Positions 2 to 13,257 of a stretch of DNA of 25,734 nt are shown one piece after another. The stretch lies in the NCBI GenBank assembly GCA_036525695.1, contig DATCZX010000288.1, positions 1-25,734 of the forward strand, given 5' to 3'. The DNA comes from Gammaproteobacteria bacterium. Its GTDB lineage: Bacteria > Pseudomonadota > Gammaproteobacteria > QNFN01. The number at the start of each line of letters is the position of its first letter. Positions within the stretch are counted from its first letter, which is position 1. A model generated the notes under the pieces. The model had not been told where the DNA came from, did no database searches, and saw only the letters and a list, made by a program, of their open reading frames with translations. Position numbers and translations under genes: made by a program.

Positions 2-328
2 GTAGTGGCCCTTGAGCTTGAGGATCGGCCGAGCGATCAGCGTCGCCAGGACCCAGGTGACGACCAGCGCCAGCCCCATCGCCAGCCACGCGCTCCAGCC
101 GAAGCGCGTGGTCAGGATCGCCGATGCGTAGGCGCCGATACCGAAGAACGCAGCATGGCCGAGCGAGATCTGCCCGGCGAAGCCCATGAACATGTTCAGG
201 CTCACCGCCAGCATCACGTGCAGGCCGACGGTGACCCCGACGACGGTGACGAAGTAGTTGTCGCGGAACACGAACGGCAGCAGCGCCACCGCCAGCGCGA
301 ACGCGAAGAAGCCGCCCAGCCGCTTCAT
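2..328 (-). CDS. livM: Branched-chain amino acid-type ABC transporter permease (LivM-like), 5' part only; runs off the window start
   Basis: Not in the ORF track. The ATG (CAT at 326-328) overlaps the livH stop (ATGA). Manual translation MKRLGGFFAFALAVALLPFVFRDNYFV...SLNMFMGFAGQISLGHAAFFGIGAY... contains the LivM-family GQISLGHAAFFGIGAY motif. Confidence 0.9.
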   Translation of the reverse strand, partial: MKRLGGFFAFALAVALLPFVFRDNYFVTVVGVTVGLHVMLAVSLNMFMGFAGQISLGHAAFFGIGAYASAILTTRFGWSAWLAMGLALVVTWVLATLIARPILKLKGHY

Positions 329-1200
329 ACGCGGTCCACCGCGCGCTTGCCGAACAGCCCGCTGGGCCGGAAGAACAGCACCAGCAGGATCACCAGGAAG
401 GCCAGCGCGTCCTTGTAGCCGGACGAGATCAGCCCGGCGCCGAGCGACTCGAGCACGCCGAGCAGCAGGCCGCCGGCGACCGCGCCCATCGAGCTGCCCA
501 TGCCGCCGAGGATCGCCGCCGAGAAGCCCTTGAGCCCGAGCATGATGCCGGCGTCGTAGGAGGTGAAGGCGATCGGCGCGATCAGGATCCCGGCGACCGC
601 GCCGAGGAACGCCGACAGCCCGTAGCTGAACAGCATCATCAGGCGCACGTTGATCCCCATCAGCTGGGCGGCGACGCGGTTGCTCGCGCACGCCAGCACC
701 GCCTTGCCCATCAGCGTGCGGTCGAAGAACCAGCGCACCGCCAGCACCAGCGCCGCGGTCAGGCCCATCACCCAGAGGTTCTGCGGCAGCACCGTGGCGG
801 TGCCGAGGTGCAGCGGCGTCTCGCCGGAGAAGTGCGGCAGCGAGTGGAAATCCTTGCCCCACAGCAGCAGCGCGGCGCCGCGCAGGAAGATCGCCGCGCC
901 GATGGTGATGATGATGGTCGCGACCACCGAAGCCCCGCGCGCCGGCTCGATCGCGAACTTCTGCAGCACCAGCCCGACGCAGGTCACCGCCAGCACCGCG
1001 CCGACGATCGCCAGCGGGTAGGGCAGGCCGCTGGCGAGCAGCGCCACGGTGCTCATCGCGCCGAGCATCACGAACTCGCCCTGGGCGAAGTTCACCACGT
1101 CGGACGCGTTGTAGATGATCGCGAAGCCGAGGCCGACCAGCGCGTAGGTGGCGCCGACGGTGATGCCGGTGATCAGGAACTGCAGGATCAGGTCGAACAT
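325..1200 (-). CDS. livH: Branched-chain amino acid-type ABC transporter permease (LivH-like)
   Basis: 291-aa hydrophobic protein with YALVGLGFAIIY, NFAQGEF and AAILGGMGS motifs typical of LivH. It lies between the binding protein and livM. Confidence 0.92.
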   Translation of the reverse strand: MFDLILQFLITGITVGATYALVGLGFAIIYNASDVVNFAQGEFVMLGAMSTVALLASGLPYPLAIVGAVLAVTCVGLVLQKFAIEPARGASVVATIIITIGAAIFLRGAALLLWGKDFHSLPHFSGETPLHLGTATVLPQNLWVMGLTAALVLAVRWFFDRTLMGKAVLACASNRVAAQLMGINVRLMMLFSYGLSAFLGAVAGILIAPIAFTSYDAGIMLGLKGFSAAILGGMGSSMGAVAGGLLLGVLESLGAGLISSGYKDALAFLVILLVLFFRPSGLFGKRAVDRV

Positions 1201-1282
1201 GGGGTTTCCCGGTCAAGCCGGGTCCCGCCGCCGCCGTGGGACGGCGACGGGACGTAGCCAGCGTGGGAAGGGAGCGGGCCGG

Positions 1283-2431
1283 TTACTCGACCAGCTTCCA
1301 GTCGCCGTTACGGATCTCGAGCAGCTTGAACGCGTCGAGGCCAAGACCCATGTGGTCGGTCGCGCTCATGTTGAACACGCCGCCGGTGCCGCTGAAGCCG
1401 CGGGTCTTCTCGATCTCGGCGCGCACCTTCTCCTTGTCGGTGCTGCCGGCGCGCTTGATCGCCTCGACCGCCAGGAACAGGCCGTCGTAGGCGTGGCCGC
1501 CGAAGGTCGAGACGGGACCGTGCTTGGCCTCGTACTTCTTCTTGTAGTCGAGCTCGACCGCCTTCTGCGGGTCGTTGTCGGGCAGCTGCTCGGCGACCAG
1601 CAGGGCCGCGGCCGGCAGGCGCACGCCCTCGGCGGCGTCGCCGGAGAGCTCGATGTACTTCTTCGAGGCGACGCCGTGCGACTGGTACAGCGGCGCGCTG
1701 ATGCCGAGCTGGCGCACGTTCTTGGTGACGATCGCCGGGCCCGAGCCGAAGCCGCAGTTGAGCAGCGCCTGCGGGTTGGCCGCGCGGATCTTGGACAGCT
1801 GCGTGGTCATGTCGGTGTCCTTGGCGCCGTAGGTCTCGTCGGCCACGATGGTGATCCCGCTCTCGGCCGCCAGGCCGACCGCCTGGCCACGGCACGACTT
1901 GTCGAAACCGCCGTCGCCACTGATCAGGCCGATCTTGGTCAGGCCGCGCTTCTGCATGTCGCCGTAGACCTTCTGCACCGCCATGCGGTCGGTGTGCGGG
2001 GTCTTGAACACCCACTTCTTGACCGGGTCGATGATCTGGATCGCGCCGGCCAGCGAGATGAACGGCACCCCGGCCGACTCGACCTCGGGGATCACCGCCA
2101 TGGTGCTGCCGGAGGTGGAGCCGCCGACGATGACGTCGACCTTGTCGCTCTGGATCAGCCGCTTGACGAAGTTGACCGACTCCTTGGCGTTGCCGCCGTC
2201 GTCGTAGTGGACCAGCTCGACCTGGCGCCCGAGCAGGCCGCCGGCGGCGTTGATCTCCTCGACGTACATCTGCAGCGTCTTCAGCTCGGGATCGCCGAGG
2301 AACGACGCCGGTCCGGTCACGGCCAAAAAGGTACCGATCTTGATCGGCTCGGCGGCCAGCGCCTGGCCGACGCCGAGCGCGACGCCCATCACCCCGGCTG
2401 CGAGGCCGGAAATCCAGCGGTGCTTGTGCAT
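1283..2431 (-). CDS. ABC transporter periplasmic binding protein (LivK/type I PBP family), probably for an aromatic acid
   Basis: 382 aa with a signal peptide (MHKHRW...QALA-AEPIKIG) and LivK-family motifs (TGPASFLG, YDDG, VDVIVGG). AGGAGG RBS upstream. The substrate is inferred only from context. Confidence 0.88.
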   Translation of the reverse strand: MHKHRWISGLAAGVMGVALGVGQALAAEPIKIGTFLAVTGPASFLGDPELKTLQMYVEEINAAGGLLGRQVELVHYDDGGNAKESVNFVKRLIQSDKVDVIVGGSTSGSTMAVIPEVESAGVPFISLAGAIQIIDPVKKWVFKTPHTDRMAVQKVYGDMQKRGLTKIGLISGDGGFDKSCRGQAVGLAAESGITIVADETYGAKDTDMTTQLSKIRAANPQALLNCGFGSGPAIVTKNVRQLGISAPLYQSHGVASKKYIELSGDAAEGVRLPAAALLVAEQLPDNDPQKAVELDYKKKYEAKHGPVSTFGGHAYDGLFLAVEAIKRAGSTDKEKVRAEIEKTRGFSGTGGVFNMSATDHMGLGLDAFKLLEIRNGDWKLVE

Positions 2432-2489
2432 GACTATCCTCCTGAGGAACTGTTATTGACTTCCCAGGAGCGGGACGGCGACCCGGGAA

Positions 2490-2507
2490 GCTTACGTTTA
2501 CGTAAAG
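2490..2507. promoter_or_regulatory. Palindromic operator, copy 1 (LiuR-like box)
   Basis: GCTTACGTTTACGTAAAG. Positions 2492-2511 match the 20-bp palindrome at 2607-2626 at 18/20 positions. It is an AT-rich island in very GC-rich DNA, just downstream of the predicted leftward promoter. Confidence 0.75.
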
Positions 2508-2526
2508 GTCACATGGACCTGCGCCT

Positions 2527-2555
2527 ACTGTAATCAGCGTGCCGGCCCAACGCAA
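2527..2555 (-). promoter_or_regulatory. Candidate sigma70 promoter of the ABC transporter operon
   Basis: Minus strand TTGCGT (2555-2550), 17-nt spacer, TACAGT (2532-2527). Confidence 0.55.
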
Positions 2556-2599
2556 TACCCCGTCACCGGCCGGCGCATTATGGCACCCTCCGCTGGGGC

Positions 2600-2629
2600 T
2601 TGTGCATTACGTTTACGTAAACGTAAAAT
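2600..2629 (+). promoter_or_regulatory. Candidate sigma70 promoter of the thioesterase-padBCD operon
   Basis: TTGTGC (2600-2605), 18-nt spacer, TAAAAT (2624-2629). The spacer is filled by operator copy 2. Confidence 0.6.
2605..2628. promoter_or_regulatory. Palindromic operator, copy 2 (two overlapping LiuR-like boxes)
   Basis: Perfect 20-bp palindrome TTACGTTTACGTAAACGTAA at 2607-2626. It contains GTTTACGTAAACGTAAAA (2611-2628) and CATTACGTTTACGTAAAC (2605-2622). Confidence 0.8.
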
Positions 2630-2701
2630 GGTCCGTCAAAACGGTCCCCGGCGATCACCCGAACGCCTCCGCAGGGACCCGCGAACCATCTGGAGGAGCA
2701 C

Positions 2702-3106
2702 ATGCAACAGAGTCTGCAGCCGGGCCTGACCAAGACCGCCCGGATCACCATCGACACCGCCCGCACGATCGACTTCATGGGCGACGAGGGCCGCGTCTAC
2801 GCCACCCCCGAGCTGGTCCGCGACATCGAGATGACCTGCCGCGACCTGCTGCTCGAGCACCTCGACGCCGGCGAGGACTCGGTCGGCACGCGCGTCGAGG
2901 TGGACCACATCGGCGCCACGCTGCTCGGCATGTGGGTCGAGATCACGGTGACCGTCAGCGCGGTCAACGGCCGCGCGGTCAGCTTCGAGATCAGCGCCCG
3001 CGACAACCTCGAGGACGTCGCCCGCGGCAAGCACAACCGCTTCGTCGTCGACGTGGCCAAGACCGCCGAGCGGCTCAAGGGCAAGGCGGCCAAGGCCGGC
3101 CTATGA
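2702..3106 (+). CDS. Hotdog-fold thioesterase, fluoroacetyl-CoA thioesterase (FlK)-like
   Basis: 134 aa. YATP...E (Thr35, Glu43) and VGTRVEVDH (His69) reproduce the spacing of the FlK Thr42/Glu50/His76 triad. GGAGGAG RBS; ATGA overlap with padB. Confidence 0.85.
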   Translation: MQQSLQPGLTKTARITIDTARTIDFMGDEGRVYATPELVRDIEMTCRDLLLEHLDAGEDSVGTRVEVDHIGATLLGMWVEITVTVSAVNGRAVSFEISARDNLEDVARGKHNRFVVDVAKTAERLKGKAAKAGL

Positions 3107-5838
3107 GCGCCCCGGAAGGCGGGACCGTGAAGAAGGTCCCGACCTACTGCTACCAGTGCGTCGCCGGCCCCGACCTGCTGACGGTCAAGGTGGTCGACGG
3201 CGTCGCCACCGAGGTCGAGCCGAACTTCGCCGCGGCCGAGGTCACCCCGTCGGCGGGCAAGGTCTGCGTCAAGGCGTACGGGTTGCTACAGAAGATGTAC
3301 AACCCGAACCGCATCCTGACGCCGATGAAGCGCACCAACCCGAAGAAGGGGGTCGACCAGGACCCGGGCTTCGTGCCGATCTCGTGGGACGAGGCGCTGG
3401 ACACCATCGCCGCGCGGCTGCACGAGGTGCAGGCCAAGGGGCCGAACGACAGCTCCGGCTACCCGCGCATCGCCGCCAGCTTCGGCGGCGGCGGCACGCC
3501 GACCTATTACATGGGCACGCTGCCGGCGTTCCTCGCCTCGATCGGGCCGATCGACTTCGGCTTCGGCAGCGGCCAGGGCGTCAAGTGCTACCACTCCGAG
3601 CACCTCTACGGGGAGCTCTGGCACCGCGCCTTCACCGTCGCCCCGGACACCCCGAACACCGAGTTCATCCTCTCGTTCGGCTACAACATCGAGGCCTCGG
3701 GCGGAGTCTGCGGGGTCAAGCGCCACGCCGACGCCCGCGCCCGCGGGGTCAAGCGGGTGCAGATCGAGCCGCACCTGTCGGTCACCGGGGCGTGCTCGGC
3801 CGAGTGGGTGCCGATCCGGCCCAAGACCGACGCCGCGTTCATGTTCGGGCTGATCCACGTGATGCTGCACGAGCAGCGCCAGCGCCTCGACATCCCGTTC
3901 CTCAAGCACCGCACCACCTCGCCCTACCTGGTGGCGCCCAACGGCTTCTTCCTGCGCGATCCGGCGACCCGCAAGCCGCTGCTCTACTGCCTCCAGCGCA
4001 AGCGCGCGGTGCCGTTCGACACCCCCGACACCGACCCGGCGCTCGAGGGCACGTTCAAGGTCTCCGGGATCGAGATCGGCGCCGACGACGACGCCTGGGA
4101 GCACCGCCTGGAGAAGGTCCAGCCGGCGTTCCAGAAGCTGCTCGAGCACACCGCCGAGTACACCCCGCTGTGGGCCGGGCGCATCTGCGACGTGCCGCAC
4201 AAGGTGATCCGCCGCCTGGCGCTCGAGTTCCTCGACCACGCGCGGGTCGGCGAGACGGTCGAGATCGAGGGCCGCACGCTGCCCTACCGCCCGGTCGCCA
4301 TCGCCCTGGGCAAGACGGTCAACAACGGCTGGGGCGGCTTCGACTGCTGCTGGGCGCGCACGCTGATGGCGTGCCTGGTCGGCGCGCTCGAGGTGCCCGG
4401 CGGCACGCTCGGCACCACGGTGCGCCTGAACCGCCCGGCGACCGACCGCGCGCTCAGCGTCAAGGGCCATCCCGACGGGTTCATGGACTACCCGATGAAC
4501 CCGACCGACAAGGCCGGCTGGCTGGCCAAGCCCGACGTGCGCAACGCCAACCGCACGCTGATCCCGCTGGTCGCGAACTCGCCGTGGAGCCAGGCGCTGG
4601 GCCCGACCCACCTGGCCTGGATGCAGCAGCAGAAGGCGCCCGAGCACTGGCCGCAGGCGACCCCGCCGGACATCTGGTTCGTCTACCGCACCAACCCGGC
4701 GATCTCGTTCTGGGACACGCGGCAGATCGAGCAGGTGCTGGCCCGGTTCCCGTTCACCGTCTGCTTCGCGCTGACCCTGGACGAGACCAACCACTTCGCC
4801 GACATCCTGCTGCCGGACCGCACCGACCTCGAGGGGCTGCAGCTGATCCGCGTCGGCGGCACCAAGTTCATCGAGCAGTTCTGGGACTACCAGGGCTTCG
4901 CGCTGCGCCAGCCGGTCGCCGAGGGCCAGGGCGACGCGCGCGACTTCACCTGGATCGCGACCGAGCTGGCGCACCGCAGCGGCGTCCTCGGCAAGTACGT
5001 CAAGGCGGTCAACCGCGGTGCCGCCGGGGTGCCGCTGCAGGGCAAGAACTACGACTTCTCGCTGCCCGAGGAGGAGGCGCCGACGGTCGAGGCGGTGTGG
5101 GACGCGACCTGCCGCGCCGCCAGCGCCGAGATCACCGACGGCGCCGAGACCCAGGGCCTCGACTGGTACCGCGAGCACGGCTTCCGGCTGGCGCCGTTCC
5201 CGCGCGTCAAGTGGTACCTGTACCCGGCGATCGAGGACGCCGGCCTGCGCTTCGAGCTGCCCTACCAGGAGCGGCTGATGCGCATCGGCAAGCAGCTCGG
5301 CCGGCGCCTGCACGAGCACGGCATCAGCTGGTGGGACGAGCAGCTCGAGGAGTACGACCCGCTGCCCGAGTACAAGAACTACCCGGAGCTGTGGGAGAAG
5401 GCGCTGGAGCGCAACTTCAAGGTCGACATCCGCGACTACCCGTTCTGGGCGGTGACCACGCGCAGCATGCAGTACGCCTGGGGCGGCAACGTCGGCATCC
5501 AGCTGATGCGCGAGGTGGCCGAGAACGTGGGCGGTCACGGCGGCGTGGTGCTGAACAGCGGCCGCGCCGCCGAGCTCGGCCTCGCCGACGGCGACCTGGT
5601 CGAGATCCGCTCGCCGCTCAACGTCACCCGCGGCCGCGTGGTCGCCCGCCAGGGCATCCGCCCCGACACCGTGTTGATGGTCGGCCAGTTCGAGCACTGG
5701 GCGACGCCGTTCGCCAAGGACCTGGAGCTGCCCAGCCTGAACAAGCTGGTGCCGATGCTGCTCGACCTGACCGACTCGACCGGCTCCGGCGCCGACCTGA
5801 CCCGGGTCAGCATCAAGCGCGTGGGAGCGAAGCGATGA
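3103..5838 (+). CDS. padB: Molybdopterin (bis-PGD) oxidoreductase catalytic subunit, phenylacetyl-CoA:acceptor oxidoreductase PadB-like
   Basis: 911 aa from the ATG at 3103 (the track's 2539 start is a spurious extension). DMSO-reductase-family features: PTYCYQC...CVK N-terminus, RILTPMKRTNPKKG, ISWDEAL, ADILLPD, C-terminal molydopterin-binding domain. No Tat signal. Clustered with Fe-S and anchor subunits and a phenylacetate-CoA ligase. Confidence 0.82.
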   Translation: MSAPEGGTVKKVPTYCYQCVAGPDLLTVKVVDGVATEVEPNFAAAEVTPSAGKVCVKAYGLLQKMYNPNRILTPMKRTNPKKGVDQDPGFVPISWDEALDTIAARLHEVQAKGPNDSSGYPRIAASFGGGGTPTYYMGTLPAFLASIGPIDFGFGSGQGVKCYHSEHLYGELWHRAFTVAPDTPNTEFILSFGYNIEASGGVCGVKRHADARARGVKRVQIEPHLSVTGACSAEWVPIRPKTDAAFMFGLIHVMLHEQRQRLDIPFLKHRTTSPYLVAPNGFFLRDPATRKPLLYCLQRKRAVPFDTPDTDPALEGTFKVSGIEIGADDDAWEHRLEKVQPAFQKLLEHTAEYTPLWAGRICDVPHKVIRRLALEFLDHARVGETVEIEGRTLPYRPVAIALGKTVNNGWGGFDCCWARTLMACLVGALEVPGGTLGTTVRLNRPATDRALSVKGHPDGFMDYPMNPTDKAGWLAKPDVRNANRTLIPLVANSPWSQALGPTHLAWMQQQKAPEHWPQATPPDIWFVYRTNPAISFWDTRQIEQVLARFPFTVCFALTLDETNHFADILLPDRTDLEGLQLIRVGGTKFIEQFWDYQGFALRQPVAEGQGDARDFTWIATELAHRSGVLGKYVKAVNRGAAGVPLQGKNYDFSLPEEEAPTVEAVWDATCRAASAEITDGAETQGLDWYREHGFRLAPFPRVKWYLYPAIEDAGLRFELPYQERLMRIGKQLGRRLHEHGISWWDEQLEEYDPLPEYKNYPELWEKALERNFKVDIRDYPFWAVTTRSMQYAWGGNVGIQLMREVAENVGGHGGVVLNSGRAAELGLADGDLVEIRSPLNVTRGRVVARQGIRPDTVLMVGQFEHWATPFAKDLELPSLNKLVPMLLDLTDSTGSGADLTRVSIKRVGAKR

Positions 5839-6478
5839 CCCGCTACGTCATGGTCGCCGACCTCGAGCGCTGCGTCGGCTGCCAGACCTGCACCGCGGCG
5901 TGCAAGCACGCCAACGCCACCGCCCCCGGGGTGCAGTGGCGCAAGGTGCTGGACATGGAGGTGGGCAGCTACCCCGACGTGCGCCGCGCCTTCGTCCCGG
6001 TCGGCTGCATGCACTGCGCCGACCCGCCGTGCATGCACGTCTGCCCGTCGACCGCCACCGGCCAGCGCGCCGACGGCATCGTCACCATCGACTACGACCT
6101 GTGCATCGGCTGCACCTACTGCGCGGTCGCCTGCCCGTACCAGGCGCGCTACATGGTCGAGGAACCGAACCAGGCCTACCGCAAGGGGCGCATGCGCCAC
6201 GAGGAGCGGCGCGACGAGCCCGGCCGGCTCGGCGTGGCGCAGAAGTGCAGCTTCTGCGTCGACCGCATCGACTACGGCAAGGCCCACGGCCTGACCCCCG
6301 GGGTCGATCCCGAGGCCACGCCCGCCTGCGTCAACGCCTGCATCGCCAGCGCGCTGCACTTCGGCGACATCGAGGATGCGCAGAGCAACGTCAGCCAGCT
6401 GCTGGCGACGCACAAGCACTTCCGCATGCACGAGGAGCTCGGCACCGAGCCGGGCTTCTTCTACCTCTGGGAGGACGC

Positions 6479-6482
<4 letters not shown>
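5835..6482 (+). CDS. padC: 4Fe-4S electron-transfer subunit (DmsB/NrfC type), PadC-like
   Basis: 215 aa from the ATG at 5835 (ATGA overlap). Four Cys groups: CVGCQTCTAAC, CMHCADPPCMHVCP, CIGCTYCAVACP, CSFC...CVNAC. Confidence 0.85.
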
Positions 6483-7351
<869 letters not shown>

Positions 7352-7480
7352 GCCGCGCCGGGGAGCGGGACCGGTTTCCCGGTCGTTCGAGGAAAACAGC
7401 GGTGGCCGCCTGGACGGAAGGAGCGCAACGACCTGCCGGCACCCGGCCGGCGCCGTTGCCTAGTTCCCGGTTCGACAGGC

Positions 7481-7489
7481 TGCTAGGGT
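7481..7489 (+). promoter_or_regulatory. Candidate extended -10 promoter for the CoA ligase gene
   Basis: TG-C-TAGGGT in the 210-bp padD-ligase gap. AGGAGG RBS just before the ATG at 7562. Confidence 0.35.
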
Positions 7490-7561
7490 TGAACAACCAC
7501 GCGCCGGGCGCCGAGGGGGCGCGACCGGACGCAGAAAAATGAGACCAGCAGGAGGTTCCCG

Positions 7562-8890
7562 ATGAGCCAGTCCGTGAAGTCCGGCAAGGCGCCGTTCCAT
7601 TTCCATCCCGAGGTCGAGGCGCTGCCACGCAAGAAACTCGCGAAGCTGCAGCTCGAGCGGCTGCAGAAGACCCTCGCCCACGCCTACGCCAACGTGGACC
7701 ATTTCCGCGCCCGGTTCGATGCCGCCGGGGTCAAGCCCAAGCACCTGAAGTCGCTCGAGGACCTCGCCAGGTTCCCGTTCACGGTCAAGAACGACCTGCG
7801 CGACCACTACCCGTTCGGCATGTTCGCCGTGCCGATGGACAAGGTGGTGCGCGTGCACGCCTCGTCGGGCACCACCGGCAAGCCGACCGTGGTCGGCTAC
7901 ACGCGCGGTGACATCCGCCGCTGGGGCGACCTGATGGCGCGCTCGATCGCCAGCGCCGGCGGGCGCCCCGGCGACATCCTGCACAACGCCTACGGCTACG
8001 GCCTGTTCACCGGCGGGCTCGGCGCCCACTACGGCGGCGAGCGCCTCGGCTGCAGCGTGACCCCGATGTCGGGCGGCAACACCGAGAAGCAGATCGTGCT
8101 GCTCAAGGACTTCGGCGCCAACGTGCTCTGCGCGACCCCCTCCTACGCGCTGAACATCGCCGAGGTGGCCGAGGCCGAGGGCGTCGACCTGGCCGGCGGC
8201 CCGTTGCGCGTCGGCGTGTTCGGCGCCGAGCCGTGGTCGGAGGCGATGCGCGCCGAGCTCGACCAGCGCCTCGGCCTGCGCGCCGTCGACATCTACGGGC
8301 TTTCCGAGATCATGGGCCCGGGCGTCGCCGCCGAGTGCTGCGAGGAGCGCGCCGGCCTGCACGGCTGGGAGGACCACTTCCTGTTCGAGATCATCGACCC
8401 GGAGAGCGGCGCGCCGAAGGCGCTCGGCGAGTCCGGCGAGCTGGTCATCACCACGCTGACCAAGCGGGCGCTGCCGATGATCCGCTACCGCACCCGCGAC
8501 ATCACCCGCCTGAGCCGCGAACCGTGCAGCTGCGGCCGCACCCACGTGCGCATCCTGCGCGTGACCGGGCGCAACGACGACATGCTGATCATCCGCGGGG
8601 TCAACGTCTACCCGTCGCAGATCGAGGCGGTGATGGTCGGCATCGCCGGAATCACCCCGCACTACCAGCTGGTGGTGCGCCGCAAGGGCTCGATGGATAC
8701 GCTCGGGGCCGAGATCGAGGCTGCGCCCGAGACCGCGGCCGGCGACTACCCGCGGCTCGCCGGCGAGATCCGCCACCACATCAAGTCGATGGTCGGCGTC
8801 ACCTGCGACGTGCAGATCAAGGCCCCGGGCGAGGTGCCGCGCTCGCAGGGCAAGGCGGTGCGCGTCCGCGACGAGCGGCCGAAGGGCTGA
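7562..8890 (+). CDS. paaK: Phenylacetate-CoA ligase (PaaK/PadJ)
   Basis: 442 aa with the PaaK motifs RVHASSGTTGKPTVVGYT, NAYGYGLFTGGLGAHYG, DIYGLSE, PMIRYRTRD, GRNDDMLIIRGVNVYPSQIE and PRSQGKAVRV. Confidence 0.95.
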   Translation: MSQSVKSGKAPFHFHPEVEALPRKKLAKLQLERLQKTLAHAYANVDHFRARFDAAGVKPKHLKSLEDLARFPFTVKNDLRDHYPFGMFAVPMDKVVRVHASSGTTGKPTVVGYTRGDIRRWGDLMARSIASAGGRPGDILHNAYGYGLFTGGLGAHYGGERLGCSVTPMSGGNTEKQIVLLKDFGANVLCATPSYALNIAEVAEAEGVDLAGGPLRVGVFGAEPWSEAMRAELDQRLGLRAVDIYGLSEIMGPGVAAECCEERAGLHGWEDHFLFEIIDPESGAPKALGESGELVITTLTKRALPMIRYRTRDITRLSREPCSCGRTHVRILRVTGRNDDMLIIRGVNVYPSQIEAVMVGIAGITPHYQLVVRRKGSMDTLGAEIEAAPETAAGDYPRLAGEIRHHIKSMVGVTCDVQIKAPGEVPRSQGKAVRVRDERPKG

Positions 8891-8899
8891 CGATTCCTC

Positions 8900-8927
8900 G
8901 CGCCGGCCCGCCAGCGCGGGCCGGCGC
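8900..8927. other. GC-rich hairpin just after the ligase stop codon
   Basis: GCGCCGGCCCGC-cagc-GCGGGCCGGCGC: 12-bp perfect stem with no U-tract. May be a pause or 3'-end stabiliser. Confidence 0.4.
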
Positions 8928-9076
8928 ACTGCTGCCACCCGCGGCTGCCGGCCGCGCGCCATCGGGCACGACCGGTGCGTTAGAACCGGTGCACGGCACC
9001 CTCCAATCCCGCTACCGCCGCACCGCCCTCGCGCGGCCGGCGCGTCCCCCGGCGACCCGCATCCCTCTGCTGGCAC

Positions 9077-9107
9077 AAAAAAACGGGGCGGCCCGTGGGC
9101 CGCCCCG
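9077..9107 (-). terminator. Rho-independent terminator of the ompA-like gene
   Basis: Minus strand CGGGGCGGCCC-AC-GGGCCGCCCCG followed by T7, 25 nt downstream of the stop at 9133. Confidence 0.88.
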
Positions 9108-9132
9108 CTAGTCAGCTCCGGACCGGCCGGGC

Positions 9133-10314
9133 TTACTTGGTCTCGATGATCACCGCGATCACGCGACGGTTGCGCTGGCGCCCGTCCTTGCTCGCGTTGT
9201 CGGCGATCGGCCGGGTCTCGCCGTAGCCGACCGTCTTCAGGCGGTTGGCATCGATCTTCTTCTTGTTGACCAGGTAGTCGCGCACCGAGTCGGCGCGGCG
9301 CTCGGAGAGCTTCTGGTTGTAGCTGTCCGGGCCGGTGCTGTCGGTGTGGCCCTCGATGGTCGCAACCGAGCCCGGGTGCTGCTCCATGAACGCCGCGGCG
9401 TCACCGAGCAGGGCGTGGTACTGCGGGCGGATGTCGGACTTGTCGAAGTCGAACTCGATCTTCAGCTCCATCCGCGTCGGCGCCATCATCACCGGGCAGC
9501 CCTGCGCGTCGACCTTGGTGCCGAGCGGGGTGTTCGGGCACTTGTCGAGGTAGTCGGGCACCCCGTCACCGTCGCTGTCGAGCGGGCAACCGCGGCTGTC
9601 CACCGGCGCACCCTTCGGGGTGTTCGGGCAGTGGTCGAAGCTGTCCGGCACGCCGTCGCCGTCGCTGTCGAGCGGGCAACCGTCGGCACCGACCGCGACC
9701 CCCTTCGGGGTGTTCGGGCAGCGGTCCTTGTCGTCGGTGACGCCGTCGCCGTCGCTGTCGAGCGGGGCGGCGGCCATCGCCTTCGGCACGCCGAACAGCA
9801 GCTGCAGGCCGGCCTGCAGCTGGTAGTCGTCGTCGTTATCGTCCCCCATGTCCAGCAGGTAACGGCCATCGAGGCGCAGGGCAACCTGTGGCGTGAGGAA
9901 GTACTTCAGGCCTGCGGCGAGGTTGATCAGCGAATCGCCGTCATCGTCGCCGCCCTGGGGGTCCATGTTGCGGTAGCCGATACCGCCGCCGAGGTAGGGG
10001 ACCAGTGCGTCGCCCTTGTCGAAGTGGTAGAGCCCGCTGATGGTGGCGATGTTCGTGTCGACCTCACCAGCGCCGCCGCGCAGGTCGACCTTCGAGTAAC
10101 TGAGCAGCGCCTCTACGCTCCAGTTGCGGCTGAAGTTGTGCCCGATGCCGAGGCTGTAGACGGTGTCGTCGTCTTCCACCGCCACGTTGTCGTACCAGTG
10201 CAGGCCGATCATCGGGCTCACCGTCCAGGCGCCCTCCCGCTCGACCGCCGAGGCGGCCCCGGCCGTCAATGCAAGCGCTAATGCAGCAGCAGCGCCAATC
10301 GCCTTTTTCATCAT
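9133..10314 (-). CDS. OmpA/OprF-family outer membrane protein with thrombospondin-type-3-like repeats
   Basis: 393 aa: signal peptide, N-terminal beta-barrel-like region (VPYLGGGIG, GLKYFL), three DSDGDGV..CP repeats, and a C-terminal peptidoglycan-binding domain (IEGHTDS, YNQKLSERRA, GYGETRPIA, NRRV). Confidence 0.93.
   Translation of the reverse strand: MMKKAIGAAAALALALTAGAASAVEREGAWTVSPMIGLHWYDNVAVEDDDTVYSLGIGHNFSRNWSVEALLSYSKVDLRGGAGEVDTNIATISGLYHFDKGDALVPYLGGGIGYRNMDPQGGDDDGDSLINLAAGLKYFLTPQVALRLDGRYLLDMGDDNDDDYQLQAGLQLLFGVPKAMAAAPLDSDGDGVTDDKDRCPNTPKGVAVGADGCPLDSDGDGVPDSFDHCPNTPKGAPVDSRGCPLDSDGDGVPDYLDKCPNTPLGTKVDAQGCPVMMAPTRMELKIEFDFDKSDIRPQYHALLGDAAAFMEQHPGSVATIEGHTDSTGPDSYNQKLSERRADSVRDYLVNKKKIDANRLKTVGYGETRPIADNASKDGRQRNRRVIAVIIETK
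9493..9762 (-). repeat. Three tandem 90-bp (30-aa) coding repeats, LDSDGDGVxDxxDxCPNTPxGxxVxxxGCP
   Basis: gtcgctgtcgagcggg recurs at 9571, 9661 and 9751, an exact 90-bp period. Confidence 0.93.
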
Positions 10315-11447: not shown

Positions 11448-12215
11448 TTACGGGTTCAGCGCGCTGTAGACCGTCTGCGCGACCGGCAGCAGCTGGTCGC
11501 GGGTCAGCGGAGCGGAGAGCGCGTAGCCGAACGGGCCGTCGACCCAGTAGAACACGCCCAGGCCGTCCTGCTCGGCGAAGCGGAACGCGGTGTCACGGTT
11601 GTCGCTGACCCCGGAGCGGACGTAGAGCGTGAGCCGGCGGCCGGCGCTGTCCTGGTACATCAGCTGGGCCGCCGGGCCGTCGCTGGCCGGGAGCAGGCGC
11701 CCGCCGACCAGCTGGTAGCCGAGGCCGTCGAGCGCGGGCGCGTGCAGCGGCGCGCCGAGGCGCTTGGAGAGCCAGCCGACCAGGTGCGCCTGCTGCGCCG
11801 CGACCACCTCGACCGGGTGCAATACCTCCGGGGCGTAGACCGCGTGCGCGACCCCGGCCGGGCGCGCCAGCGCCAGCTCGAGCGCCGCACCGGCGTCACC
11901 GGCGGAGCGCGCGTGCAGCTGCCAGCCCGCCACTCCGCCGATCACGCCGCCGAGCGCCAGCCAGGCGCTGACGGCGGCGACGGCCAGGCGGCGCGGTGCG
12001 CGCGGCCGCTGCACCAGGCGCTGCGGCAACGGCGCGTCGACGACCGGGTCGAAGCTGGAGTGCAGCACGGCGTTGAGCCGCCGGTAGTCGTCGACCTGCG
12101 CGGCGACCGTCGGATGCGCGGCGAGGTACTCCTCGAGTTCGCGCCGGCGCACCGGGTCGAGCGCACCGTCGACGTACCCGTGCAGGTCGGCCTCGCTGAT
12201 CGGTCCCCGGTTCAC
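11448..12215 (-). CDS. Transmembrane anti-sigma factor (PrtR-like)
   Basis: 255 aa with a GTG start overlapping the sigma stop (GTGA). N-terminal anti-sigma domain (LHGYVDG.LD...R...LEEYL) without HxxxCxxC, one TM helix, and a periplasmic domain (AHAVYAPE..HPVEV, WLSKRLG, GGRLLP, LMYQ). Confidence 0.85.
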   Translation of the reverse strand: MNRGPISEADLHGYVDGALDPVRRRELEEYLAAHPTVAAQVDDYRRLNAVLHSSFDPVVDAPLPQRLVQRPRAPRRLAVAAVSAWLALGGVIGGVAGWQLHARSAGDAGAALELALARPAGVAHAVYAPEVLHPVEVVAAQQAHLVGWLSKRLGAPLHAPALDGLGYQLVGGRLLPASDGPAAQLMYQDSAGRRLTLYVRSGVSDNRDTAFRFAEQDGLGVFYWVDGPFGYALSAPLTRDQLLPVAQTVYSALNP

Positions 12216-12721
12216 TTGACCCTCCGCAGCCGCGGTGCACTCCCGCCGCCGAGTTCCGCGCGCAGCCGCTCGCGCGCGCGGTGCAGGCGCGACATCACCG
12301 TGCCGAGCGGCAAGTCCAGCGTCGCGGCGACCGCCTCGTAGCTGAACCCCTCGAGCGCCACCAGCAGCAACACCTGCCGCTGCGGCTCGGGCAGGCGCTG
12401 CAGCGCGCGGTCGAGATCGCGGATCTCGAGCGCCATCTCCGGCGCCTGCGGACTCGCCGCGCCCGCCCCCTCCTCGTCGAGCGGGTCCTCGGCGGGGCGG
12501 CCGCGCAGCCGGCGCACGCGGTTGGCGTTGACCCGGTGCATGATGGTGAACAGCCAGGCGCGCATGTCGCTGCCGGCGCGCCAGCGGTGCAGGCGGCTCC
12601 AGGCCCGCTCGAGGCAGTCCTGGACCAGGTCGTCGGCGCTGCCAGCCTGCCCGGTCAGCGCGCGCGCGTAGCGGCGCAGGCGCGGGATCTGTTCCAGCAG
12701 CAGGGTTTCGGCGGCGTCCAC
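12212..12721 (-). CDS. ECF RNA polymerase sigma factor (PrtI-like)
   Basis: Region 2 (IPRLRRYARAL, ADDLVQDCLERAW, RAWLFTIMH) and region 4 (LLLVALEGFSYEAVA..L..PLGTVMSRLHRAR). The start is placed at GTG 12721 (169 aa) and is less certain; the track's 12937 start overlaps the upstream gene. Confidence 0.88.
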   Translation of the reverse strand: MDAAETLLLEQIPRLRRYARALTGQAGSADDLVQDCLERAWSRLHRWRAGSDMRAWLFTIMHRVNANRVRRLRGRPAEDPLDEEGAGAASPQAPEMALEIRDLDRALQRLPEPQRQVLLLVALEGFSYEAVAATLDLPLGTVMSRLHRARERLRAELGGGSAPRLRRVK

Positions 12722-12755
12722 GGTCCCGTCATGCGCGGCTCTACCTACCCGGACA

Positions 12756-12780
12756 AACACCGGGCGGGGCGGATTATTCC
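12756..12780 (-). promoter_or_regulatory. Candidate ECF-type (possibly autoregulated) promoter
   Basis: Minus strand GGAAT (12780-12776), 17-nt spacer, GTT (12758-12756), in the short gap upstream of the sigma gene. Confidence 0.4.
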
Positions 12781-12789
12781 CGGGCCCGC

Positions 12790-13257
12790 TCAGAGCGACT
12801 CGTCGACCAGCCGGCGCAGCAGTTGCTCGATCGCCTCCAGCGGTGGCGTGGCGCCGGAGGCGGTCGGCTTGGCAAAGGCCAGGTAGACGCTGCCGGCGTC
12901 GCCGGGCAGCGTGTAGACCGCGATCCGGTACGGGCACTGCACCAGGTCGGCCGGGTTGGCCTCGACCATGCGCCGGGTCAGCAGCGCGCTGCAGAACTCG
13001 ACCACCTCGGCCTGCCCGACCGGCGAGCCGCTGAAGCCGAGATCGGGCGCGGTGCGCTCGAGCATCTCGCCGACGTGGCCGACCGTGCTGACGGTCAAGC
13101 CGGCGCCGATGATCGCCTGCTCGAGGTTGCCGCGGATGTCGGCGAATTCGCCGCCGGTGCGCGCCACCACCCGGTGGCCGTCGTCACGCCATTCCGCGGC
13201 CTGCGCGGCTGCCGTGAGCAGCCACGCCAACACGGTGCACGAAGCCCATCTGCGCAT
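12790..13257 (-). CDS. Exported DUF302-domain protein
   Basis: 155 aa from the ATG at 13257. Signal peptide ending AAAQA-A, followed by the DUF302-type motifs EFCSA...A...CPYRIAVY. Confidence 0.75.
   Translation of the reverse strand: MRRWASCTVLAWLLTAAAQAAEWRDDGHRVVARTGGEFADIRGNLEQAIIGAGLTVSTVGHVGEMLERTAPDLGFSGSPVGQAEVVEFCSALLTRRMVEANPADLVQCPYRIAVYTLPGDAGSVYLAFAKPTASGATPPLEAIEQLLRRLVDESL

What the first reader, a model, noticed from the sequence alone, without database searches (positions are those of the whole stretch)
2490..2629. LiuR-like operators on both divergent promoters of a phenylacetate (pad) cluster
Seen: a perfect 20-bp palindrome TTACGTTTACGTAAACGTAA (2607-2626) fills the 18-nt spacer of TTGTGC-N18-TAAAAT. 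An 18/20 copy (2492-2511) lies just downstream of the opposite promoter TTGCGT-N17-TACAGT. I saw the motif nowhere else in the window, and no regulator gene is present. Known: the comparative-genomics consensus for LiuR, the MerR-family regulator of branched-chain amino acid and acyl-CoA catabolism, is about sTTTACGTwwACGTAAAs as I recall it. MerR proteins bind within long promoter spacers. Described pad clusters are associated with a local TetR-type PadR. Inference: aryl-acetate uptake and oxidation may here be wired into a global LiuR-type regulon, which I do not know to have been described. Copy 2 also holds two boxes offset by 6 bp.
Basis: partly seen in the sequence, partly recalled or inferred. 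Interest (0 to 1): 0.72.

Follow-up and report, generated by a model that had tools for sequence, protein, structure and literature searches.

The report
LiuR operators on phenylacetate (pad) promoters
Two conserved binding sites of the kind used by LiuR, the regulator of leucine and acyl-CoA breakdown, sit on the back-to-back promoters of an oxygen-free phenylacetate-oxidation operon and its uptake system. This is a real but fairly ordinary extension of a known regulon to aromatic acids in an uncultured sediment bacterium.

Summary
A perfect 20-bp palindrome lies at 2607-2626 and an 18/20 copy at 2492-2511. There is no other copy in the window, and none is expected by chance.

The LiuR reading also holds. 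I trained a matrix only on sites upstream of LiuR homologues from other families. It gives the right-hand site the maximum score (33.9 bits) and the left-hand site 28.5. Genome-wide, 12 positions in 9 intergenic loci score at least 27.8, and the next scores 21.

One locus is the promoter of a MerR-family gene that heads liuR-liuC-liuE. The others precede an isovaleryl-CoA-dehydrogenase-like gene, etfB, a 3-hydroxyacyl-CoA dehydrogenase, an indolepyruvate-type 2-oxoacid:ferredoxin oxidoreductase and a benzoate-CoA-ligase-family gene.

Both pad sites are islands of 90-93% identity in an otherwise diverged spacer (38-51%) across the family's genomes. Among 80 padB loci from other species, such sites occur only in this gammaproteobacterial lineage and in Thauera aminoaromatica S2.

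Metatranscriptome contigs leave 2565-2648 uncovered. That fits the proposed rightward promoter.

The most likely mechanism is repression by LiuR, relieved by an acyl-CoA. LiuR control of padBCD is not in the 2016 RegPrecise compendium. This is a new target set for a known switch, of moderate interest.

The parts
2606..2627 (.). Operator B. It consists of two overlapping 16-bp LiuR boxes, 2606-2621 (ATTACGTTTACGTAAA) and 2612-2627 (TTTACGTAAACGTAAA), and contains the perfect 20-bp palindrome 2607-2626.
   Evidence: Searches give the sequence and palindrome. PWM scores are 29.8 and 33.9 bits, the latter being the maximum. Column identity is 0.90 across 6 family genomes, against 0.38-0.51 for the surrounding spacer. 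It lies in the RNA-free gap 2565-2648.
2491..2511 (.). Operator A. It has a 16-bp box at 2491-2506 (CTTACGTTTACGTAAA) and a weaker overlapping box at 2497-2512. It is an 18/20 copy of the palindrome.
   Evidence: Shown (28.5 and 18.6 bits). Column identity is 0.93 across family genomes. It is missing in G006, where the transporter operon is not the neighbour. It is covered by RNA contigs of the transporter side in 3 of 4 runs.
2600..2629 (+). Proposed rightward promoter of the thioesterase-padBCD-paaK operon: -35 TTGTGC (2600-2605), an 18-nt spacer filled by operator B, and -10 TAAAAT (2624-2629). The predicted start is near 2636.
   Evidence: The sequence is. TTGTRY and TAnnnT are conserved in all 7 genomes (-35 identity 0.81). 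RNA contigs of the pad side begin at 2649, 2669, 2672 and 2709, never upstream. The promoter tool does not call it, because the -35 matches only 3 of 6.
2577..2606 (-). Candidate leftward promoter of the ABC-transporter operon: -35 TGCACA (2606-2601), an 18-nt spacer, and TG-extended -10 CATAAT (2582-2577). The predicted start is near 2570. Its -35 overlaps the rightward -35 and abuts operator B.
   Evidence: This is the only promoter-like site the tool finds in 2380-2760, with 0.0 expected. RNA contigs from the transporter side reach 2556 and 2564. Against it, the -10 is not conserved in relatives (identity 0.30).
2527..2555 (-). It may be a second, proximal promoter or another conserved element.
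   Evidence: The blocks are conserved in relatives (identity 0.81 and 0.77; alignment). RNA contigs of 3 of 4 runs extend beyond its predicted start near 2520.
1283..2431 (-). Periplasmic substrate-binding protein of a Liv-type ABC transporter, first gene of the leftward operon. The permease gene at 325-1200 follows.
   Evidence: Pfam Peripla_BP_6 at 1.4e-61 and BPD_transp_2 at 9e-36. The same divergent arrangement occurs in relatives and in L034.
2702..3106 (+). FlK-type hotdog thioesterase, first gene of the rightward operon. Its stop overlaps the padB start.
   Evidence: Pfam PF22636 FlK at 7.6e-31. The ATGA overlap is at 3103-3106.
3103..5838 (+). PadB-like molybdopterin subunit (911 aa).
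   Evidence: Pfam Molybdopterin and Molydop_binding. It is 68-69% identical to the padB loci of Thauera aromatica and T. aminoaromatica.
5835..6482 (+). PadC-like four-cluster ferredoxin subunit.
   Evidence: Fer4_11 and DMSO-reductase B-subunit-type NCBIfam matches.
6479..7351 (+). PadD-like membrane anchor.
   Evidence: Pfam DmsC at 1.1e-08. It is 48% identical to the anchor of the paralogous set on contig C439.
7562..8890 (+). Phenylacetate-CoA ligase (PaaK/PadJ type).
   Evidence: TIGR02155 at 612.7 bits, just under the 646.3 cutoff.

Best explanation
The two sites are operators of the genome's LiuR, a MerR-family regulator encoded on another contig at the head of a liuR-liuC-liuE operon.

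Operator B fills the spacer of the pad promoter, overlaps its -10, and abuts the -35 of the divergent transporter promoter. Operator A lies in the transcribed leader of the transporter operon.

I infer that LiuR bound to these sites represses both operons. I also infer that an acyl-CoA intermediate of amino-acid breakdown releases it, so that phenylacetate uptake, activation (PaaK) and alpha-oxidation (PadBCD plus thioesterase) switch on together with the rest of the regulon. In this family the regulon also contains the leucine genes, ETF, an indolepyruvate-type 2-oxoacid:ferredoxin oxidoreductase and a benzoate-CoA-ligase-family gene.

Shown here: the sites, their conservation, their match to the LiuR-associated motif, the regulon content and the transcript boundaries. 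Inferred: which protein binds, the sign of regulation and the effector.
For: 1. Regulator and motif travel together. Homologues of the C241 MerR protein from 9 other families of the class carry TTKACGTwwACGTMAA within about 100 bp upstream in 9 of 11 loci. Counted without any consensus, the four most shared 8-mers of those upstream regions are pieces of the motif.

2. A PWM from those foreign sites gives a bimodal genome-wide scan. Twelve positions at 27.8 bits or more fall in 9 intergenic loci and the next scores 21. Operator B reaches the maximum of 33.9 and operator A 28.5. Shuffled genomes give 0.

3. The C241 gene is MerR family. It is followed by a methylglutaconyl-type hydratase and HMG-CoA lyase (258 bits against a cutoff of 246), and has a perfect box on its own promoter. 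Contig C94 has the box before an acyl-CoA dehydrogenase plus carboxyltransferase.

4. Phylogenetic footprint. The operators show 0.90-0.93 identity against 0.38-0.51 for the rest of the spacer across the family.

5. All 7 family genomes carry high-scoring boxes before the IOR-alpha and benzoate-CoA-ligase-family orthologues. In L034 the IOR genes directly follow paaK in the pad cluster.

6. There is an independent occurrence in T. aminoaromatica S2. It has a box about 135 bp upstream of padB and boxes before an ADH/2-oxoacid oxidoreductase pair, with 10 genome-wide hits against 1 for the control pattern.

7. RNA contigs of 4 metatranscriptomes leave 2565-2648 uncovered. Operator B is therefore in the non-transcribed promoter core.

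8. LiuR is described as a repressor (PMC3223726). IorAB makes phenylacetyl-CoA from phenylpyruvate in Aromatoleum (PMC9765128), which gives the regulon a metabolic logic.
Against: No binding experiment exists for this protein or these sites.

The genome has a second LiuR-like paralogue on C310 (42-43% identical) that could share or take over some sites.

Orthology to an experimentally studied LiuR (P. aeruginosa, Shewanella) rests on gene context and motif only, because I had no reference sequence to compare.

The assembly is fragmented (466 contigs), so the regulon list is incomplete.

An operator inside a spacer longer than 17 nt is also the classical MerR activation geometry, so the sign of regulation is not settled.

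The RNA evidence comes from unstranded assembled contigs, not raw 5' ends. The leftward promoter it favours is not conserved in relatives.

73 of 80 padB loci in other species have no such site, so the link is specific to this lineage.
Confidence: 0.75

Rival explanations
1. The same sites are bound by LiuR, but at the pad promoter it acts as a MerR-type activator. Effector-bound protein would untwist the over-long 18-nt spacer and realign -35 and -10. Operator A would still repress or play no role.
For: The conserved 16-bp box sits exactly within the 18-nt spacer between conserved TTGTRY and TAnnnT elements in all 7 genomes. The regulator is MerR family and its nearest solved relatives are CueR and MerR. 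The -35 is weak, matching 3 of 6.
Against: LiuR is described as a repressor (PMC3223726). Classical MerR promoters have 19-20-nt spacers, not 18 (textbook knowledge). Operator A and many other sites of the regulon are not in spacers. In G000 the best box overlaps the -10 by 4 nt.
Confidence: 0.12
2. The pad, IOR and ligase sites are bound by the second LiuR-like paralogue (C310), acting as a dedicated regulator of the aromatic branch. The C241 LiuR would keep the leucine genes.
For: A 42-43% identical MerR paralogue exists, with two boxes on its own promoter. Similar paralogues occur in the genomes holding L034 and L036.
Against: Its own boxes, and those of its homologues, have an ATA centre (TTGACGTATACGT...). 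The pad sites share the TT/AA centre and TTTACGT arms of the liuR, ivd and etfB sites. In the genome of L034 the paralogue's homologue is followed by a thiolase, not by aromatic genes. The PWM cannot separate 'aromatic' from 'aliphatic' sites.
Confidence: 0.1
3. An unrelated regulator, such as a TetR-type PaaR or PadR-like protein encoded on an unassembled part of the genome, binds the palindromes. On this view the resemblance to LiuR boxes is coincidental.
For: Pad clusters elsewhere have their own regulators, such as padR in A. aromaticum (PMC9765128). T. aromatica LG356 has a different palindrome, GAATGACTGAACGGTCATTC, before padB. The assembly is estimated 92.5% complete and is fragmented.
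Against: The box is identical to that on the liuR, ivd-like and etfB promoters of the same genome, and to boxes upstream of LiuR homologues in nine other families. No other conserved palindrome of comparable strength lies in the spacer.
Confidence: 0.03

Closest known systems
LiuR regulon of Proteobacteria. LiuR is the MerR-family regulator of branched-chain amino-acid and acyl-CoA catabolism (Kazakov et al. 2009, as cited in PMC5343134 and PMC3223726; RegPrecise).
   Same: The regulator is a small MerR-family protein at the head of liu genes and is autoregulated. The palindromic box has two ACGT cores 6 bp apart. Core targets are ivd/liu and etf genes. Occasional targets already listed include livKHMGF (4-6 genomes), paaK (2), paaI (10), badI (1) and an MBL-fold gene next to liuR.
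   Different: Here the regulon takes in the molybdenum enzyme PadBCD with its thioesterase, an indolepyruvate-type 2-oxoacid:ferredoxin oxidoreductase and a benzoate-CoA-ligase-family gene. Together these form the anaerobic phenylalanine/phenylacetate branch. None of them appears under LiuR in the 2016 compendium. Many sites carry a third ACGT or AGGT repeat.
The pad cluster of Thauera and Aromatoleum (padBCD, padEFGHI, padJ) with its local regulator padR.
   Same: PadB is 68-69% identical, the PadC and PadD subunits are the same, and there is a PaaK/PadJ-type ligase.
   Different: There is no padEFGHI and no local regulator in the window, and a thioesterase leads the operon. Control is by a distant, global regulator. 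T. aromatica LG356 has another palindrome and no LiuR box, while T. aminoaromatica S2 does have LiuR-like boxes.
Classical MerR-type promoters (merT, copA/CueR, zntA).
   Same: The operator dyad is placed in the spacer between -35 and -10, and the regulator belongs to the same fold family.
   Different: The spacer is 18 nt rather than 19-20. LiuR lacks an assigned metal site and is described as a repressor. The second operator is in a transcribed leader.

Membership tests
LiuR (MerR-family regulator) and its operator | The regulator has a MerR N-terminal winged helix and a coiled-coil dimerisation domain. | tested here: met
   C241 1383-1790(-) matches MerR_1 at 1e-16, MerR-DNA-bind at 1.5e-13 and MerR at 2.8e-12. 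C310 gives similar matches.
LiuR (MerR-family regulator) and its operator | The regulator gene is linked to leucine/isovalerate (liu/ivd) genes. | tested here: met
   The C241 gene is followed by a methylglutaconyl/carboxygeranoyl-CoA-hydratase-type gene and HMG-CoA lyase (NF004283, 258 bits against a cutoff of 246). Divergent from it is an MBL-fold gene, as in the Ralstonia and Cupriavidus entries of the compendium.
LiuR (MerR-family regulator) and its operator | A palindromic box with two ACGT cores 6 bp apart lies on the regulator's own promoter and on ivd/liu/etf promoters. | tested here: met
   Perfect boxes lie at C241:1816 and C94:2971, with further boxes at C411:1300 and C427:2442. Boxes lie upstream of homologues in 9 of 11 loci of other families and appear in the de novo 8-mers.
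LiuR (MerR-family regulator) and its operator | The pad sites score as members of that motif. | tested here: met
   They score 33.9 bits (the maximum) and 28.5 bits with a PWM trained only on foreign sites, and rank within the top 12 of 2.58 Mb. The original RegPrecise matrix itself was not available.
LiuR (MerR-family regulator) and its operator | Sequence orthology to an experimentally studied LiuR (P. aeruginosa PA2016, Shewanella LiuR). | not tested
   No reference sequence was obtainable through the tools. Kazakov 2009 is not held. No LiuR structure is in the PDB; the nearest are CueR and MerR at about 1e-9.
LiuR (MerR-family regulator) and its operator | The protein binds the site and responds to an effector. 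| not testable with these tools
   This needs EMSA, footprinting or reporter assays.
MerR-type activation by spacer distortion | The operator is centred in an over-long 19-20-nt spacer of the regulated promoter. | tested here: inconclusive
   The box lies in the spacer, but the spacer is 18 nt. The box is offset by 1-2 nt from the spacer's centre, and in G000 the best box overlaps the -10.
PadBCD phenylacetyl-CoA:acceptor oxidoreductase cluster | A Mo-bis-PGD catalytic subunit, a four-cluster ferredoxin and a DmsC-like anchor, next to a phenylacetate-CoA ligase and closely related to the Thauera genes. | tested here: met
   Searches give the domains. Identity to the T. aromatica and T. aminoaromatica loci is 68-69%. 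Substrate specificity was not tested. A second paralogous set exists on C439.

The most novel reading that the evidence does not exclude
In this uncultured gammaproteobacterial family LiuR may have become the master switch of a unified, oxygen-independent amino-acid catabolic regulon. In that regulon ferredoxin-dependent 2-oxoacid oxidoreductases feed both branched-chain and aromatic acyl-CoAs into their pathways (Liu for isovaleryl-CoA; PadBCD and then a benzoyl-CoA-forming step for phenylacetyl-CoA). LiuR would then have to sense aryl-acyl-CoAs as well as branched-chain ones. The three-repeat operators (ACGT-N2-ACGT-N2-ACGT/AGGT, kept in direct orientation at both pad promoters) may reflect a binding mode beyond a single dimer on a 16-bp box.
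Probability: 0.3. Interest if true: 0.5.

Novelty: new member of a known kind. Interest (0 to 1): 0.36.

Why it matters
Regulation of the anaerobic phenylacetate (pad) route is poorly known outside Aromatoleum and Thauera, where a local regulator is assumed.

Here a whole peripheral aromatic branch (uptake, CoA ligation, alpha-oxidation, an IOR-type oxidoreductase and a benzoate-CoA-ligase-type enzyme) carries the operator of the global acyl-CoA regulator LiuR. The lineage is transcriptionally active in sediments.

This gives co-regulation evidence for which distant genes complete the truncated pad pathway. It adds a concrete, testable example of LiuR regulon expansion. It also points to a cultivable organism, Thauera aminoaromatica, in which a LiuR-pad link could be tested genetically. 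It is not a new kind of switch.

Tried and rejected
- Kazakov et al. 2009 (tried as PMC2612455, an id recalled from memory), the source of the published LiuR consensus, is not held. I derived the motif afresh from LiuR-homologue promoters instead of scoring the RegPrecise matrix.
I kept the rightward one on conservation and RNA grounds. I downgraded the leftward one.
- I considered a DNA loop between the two operators. The spacing is 115 bp in G000 but 119, 120, 121, 142 and 178 or more in relatives. It is therefore not in constant helical phase, and I rejected looping as a conserved feature.
- I looked for LiuR boxes at the paralogous PadBCD set on C439 and at the 57%-identical PadB of G016. 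There are none.
- I looked for the box before padB in 80 loci of other species. It is absent from 73, so this is not a general property of pad clusters.
- I looked for a TetR-type palindrome like that of T. aromatica LG356 in the window's spacer. None was found.
- The PDB holds no LiuR structure.
- A literature search for LiuR together with phenylacetate gave no relevant paper.
- Earlier notes of this scan mention many LiuR operators, but none on pad genes.

Full report
**Observation.** The spacer between the divergent start codons (2431 on the minus strand, 2702 on the plus strand) holds TTACGTTTACGTAAACGTAA at 2607-2626. This is a perfect palindrome. An 18/20 copy, TTACGTTTACGTAAAGGTCA, lies at 2492-2511. 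With up to three mismatches there is no other copy in the window, and none appeared in 100 shuffles. The genome is a 2.58-Mb, 466-contig assembly of 72% G+C, and the window is one whole contig.

**Genes.**
- On the minus strand lie a Liv-type substrate-binding protein (1283-2431) and a permease (325-1200).
- On the plus strand the operon runs in this order:
  - an FlK-type thioesterase (2702-3106);
  - PadB (3103-5838);
  - PadC (5835-6482);
  - PadD (6479-7351);
  - a PaaK-type ligase (7562-8890).
- PadB is 68-69% identical to the padB loci of Thauera aromatica and T. aminoaromatica.
- The rest of the window is unrelated housekeeping. It holds no MerR or TetR gene, only an ECF sigma factor at 12212-12937.
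- A second PadBCD set (61% identical) lies on contig C439. It sits beside a hybrid sensor kinase and another 2-oxoacid oxidoreductase and has no such sites.

**Which regulator.** A genome-wide scan found the motif at eight further loci.
- One lies on the promoter of a MerR-family gene on C241. That gene is followed by a methylglutaconyl-type hydratase and HMG-CoA lyase, and is divergent from an MBL-fold gene. This is the classical liuR context. MBL-fold genes of Ralstonia and Cupriavidus are listed as LiuR targets in the RegPrecise-based compendium.
- Other sites precede:
  - an acyl-CoA dehydrogenase plus carboxyltransferase (C94);
  - etfB (C411);
  - a 3-hydroxyacyl-CoA dehydrogenase (C427);
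  - a PorC-type gene and, divergently, an indolepyruvate-type oxidoreductase alpha subunit (C15, two sites);
  - a benzoate-CoA-ligase-family gene (C131);
  - a second MerR paralogue (C310).

**Testing the link without circularity.** I took homologues of the C241 protein from other families of the class. Nine of eleven loci carry TTKACGTwwACGTMAA within about 100 bp upstream. A consensus-free count of shared 8-mers in those upstream regions is headed by ACGTTTAC, ACGTAAAC, CGTAAACG and TTACGTAA.

A matrix trained only on these foreign sites gives a bimodal scan of the genome. Twelve positions in nine spacers score at least 27.8 bits and the next scores 21. The pad sites score 33.9 bits (the maximum possible) and 28.5. 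Shuffled genomes give none.

**Conservation.**
- All six other genomes of the family have the pad cluster at 86-95% PadB identity.
- Their spacers have diverged to 38-51% column identity. The two operators stand out at 90-93%.
- In G006 the transporter is not the neighbour. There the left-hand operator is missing and the right-hand one remains, which ties each operator to its own promoter.
- All seven genomes also carry strong boxes before the IOR-alpha and ligase orthologues.
- In a more distant relative (L034, 83% PadB identity) the IOR genes follow paaK directly.
- Among 80 padB loci from other species, boxes occur only in this gammaproteobacterial lineage (76-93% identity) and in Thauera aminoaromatica S2.
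- T. aminoaromatica S2 has boxes about 135 bp before padB and before an ADH/2-oxoacid-oxidoreductase pair.
- T. aromatica LG356 has a different palindrome there.
- In both Thauera genomes the pattern is enriched over its control (10 against 1 and 7 against 1). A box precedes the LiuR homologue.

**Transcripts.** Four sediment metatranscriptomes from two studies hold this DNA at 95% identity or more.
- Contigs from the transporter side end at 2502, 2532, 2556 and 2564.
- Contigs from the pad side begin at 2649, 2669, 2672 and 2709.
- Positions 2565-2648 are uncovered in all four runs. No contig runs on into unlike sequence there.

The gap argues that these contigs derive from RNA rather than contaminating DNA. 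It brackets a non-transcribed core that contains operator B.
- A rightward start near 2636 fits. It follows from TTGTGC-N18-TAAAAT, whose TTGTRY and TAnnnT elements are conserved.
- The leftward start must lie at or beyond 2564. That fits the TG-extended TGCACA-N18-CATAAT promoter found by the tool.
Both promoters may be used, and this remains open.
- On either reading, operator A is downstream of the leftward start, at roughly +10 to +30 or +55 to +80. Operator B overlaps the rightward spacer and -10 and abuts the leftward -35.

**Mechanism.** These positions fit repression, and LiuR is described as a repressor (PMC3223726). MerR-type activation at the 18-nt spacer cannot be excluded.

The effector is unknown. 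An acyl-CoA is an inference from the regulon content. The metabolic logic is sound: IorAB converts phenylpyruvate to phenylacetyl-CoA in Aromatoleum (PMC9765128). IOR, PaaK, PadBCD and an aryl-CoA ligase therefore belong to one route.

The paralogue on C310 is a weaker candidate. Its own boxes, and those of its homologues, have an ATA centre, and one homologue is followed by a thiolase.

**Novelty.** The compendium of Leyn et al. 2016 lists livKHMGF, paaK, paaI, paaG and badI as sporadic LiuR targets. It lists no padBCD, no ferredoxin oxidoreductase and no benzoate ligase. No paper was found that links LiuR to phenylacetate.

This scan has noted LiuR-type operators in more than 200 genomes, but none on pad genes. 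This is therefore a lineage-specific expansion of a known regulon by a known mechanism.

Noticed in passing
G000 contig C439 (L030) 2756-6991(-), 112-2730(-), 7316-9205(+): A second PadBCD-like set (PadB 61% identical, anchor 48%) lies next to a PAS/hybrid sensor kinase. It is divergent from a POR_N/TPP/Fer4 2-oxoacid oxidoreductase and has no LiuR box, so it is presumably under different control and perhaps has another substrate.
   Followed up: partly
G000 contig C15 (L001) 5113-5205, between 4321-4881(-) and 5315-7474(+): Two strong LiuR boxes (31.7 and 33.9 bits) lie between a PorC/KorC-type gamma subunit gene (weak PadE similarity, 99 bits) and an indolepyruvate-oxidoreductase-alpha-like gene. 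The boxes before the IOR-alpha gene are conserved in all 7 family genomes. Both enzymes are co-regulated candidates for the steps before or after PadBCD in a cluster that lacks padEFGHI.
   Followed up: partly
G000 contig C131 (L003) 4646-4667, upstream of 2869-4455(-): A LiuR box (32.8 bits) precedes a benzoate-CoA-ligase-family gene (TIGR02262, 656 bits). It is conserved in all 7 family genomes.
   Followed up: partly
G000 contig C310 (L005) 680-715 and 736-1185(+): A second LiuR-like MerR paralogue (42-43% identical) has two boxes of a variant type with an ATA centre (TTGACGTATACGTAAT). Homologues in two other genomes have the same variant. Its targets are unknown.
   Followed up: partly
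L048 (Thauera aminoaromatica S2) 5820-5885 and 1355-1500: LiuR-like boxes lie about 135 bp upstream of padB (after a CBS-domain gene) and between a zinc ADH gene and a 2-oxoacid:ferredoxin oxidoreductase gene. This organism can be cultured, so the LiuR-pad link could be tested in it.
   Followed up: partly
L045 (Thauera aromatica LG356) about 5895-5915: A different near-perfect palindrome, GAATGACTGAACGGTCATTC, sits just after a TTGACT -35-like hexamer upstream of padB. It is probably the operator of that organism's own pad regulator.
   Followed up: no
window 2506-2520 and 2492-2519 / 2607-2634: Operator A runs into a small inverted repeat, AGGTC-N5-GACCT (AGGTCAATAGACCT in relatives), which is conserved across the family. 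The similarity of the two operators extends to 28 nt in direct orientation (…ATGGNCC). The third repeat is AGGT rather than ACGT in most relatives. This is unexplained.
   Followed up: no
window 2000-3200: Both the transporter and the pad operon are represented in marine-sediment, sediment and estuary metatranscriptomes at 95% identity or more. The lineage therefore expresses these genes in situ.
   Followed up: partly
L012 (G002) 1198-1430: In one family member padB follows the spacer without the thioesterase gene, and the spacer carries three box-bearing sites instead of two.
   Followed up: no
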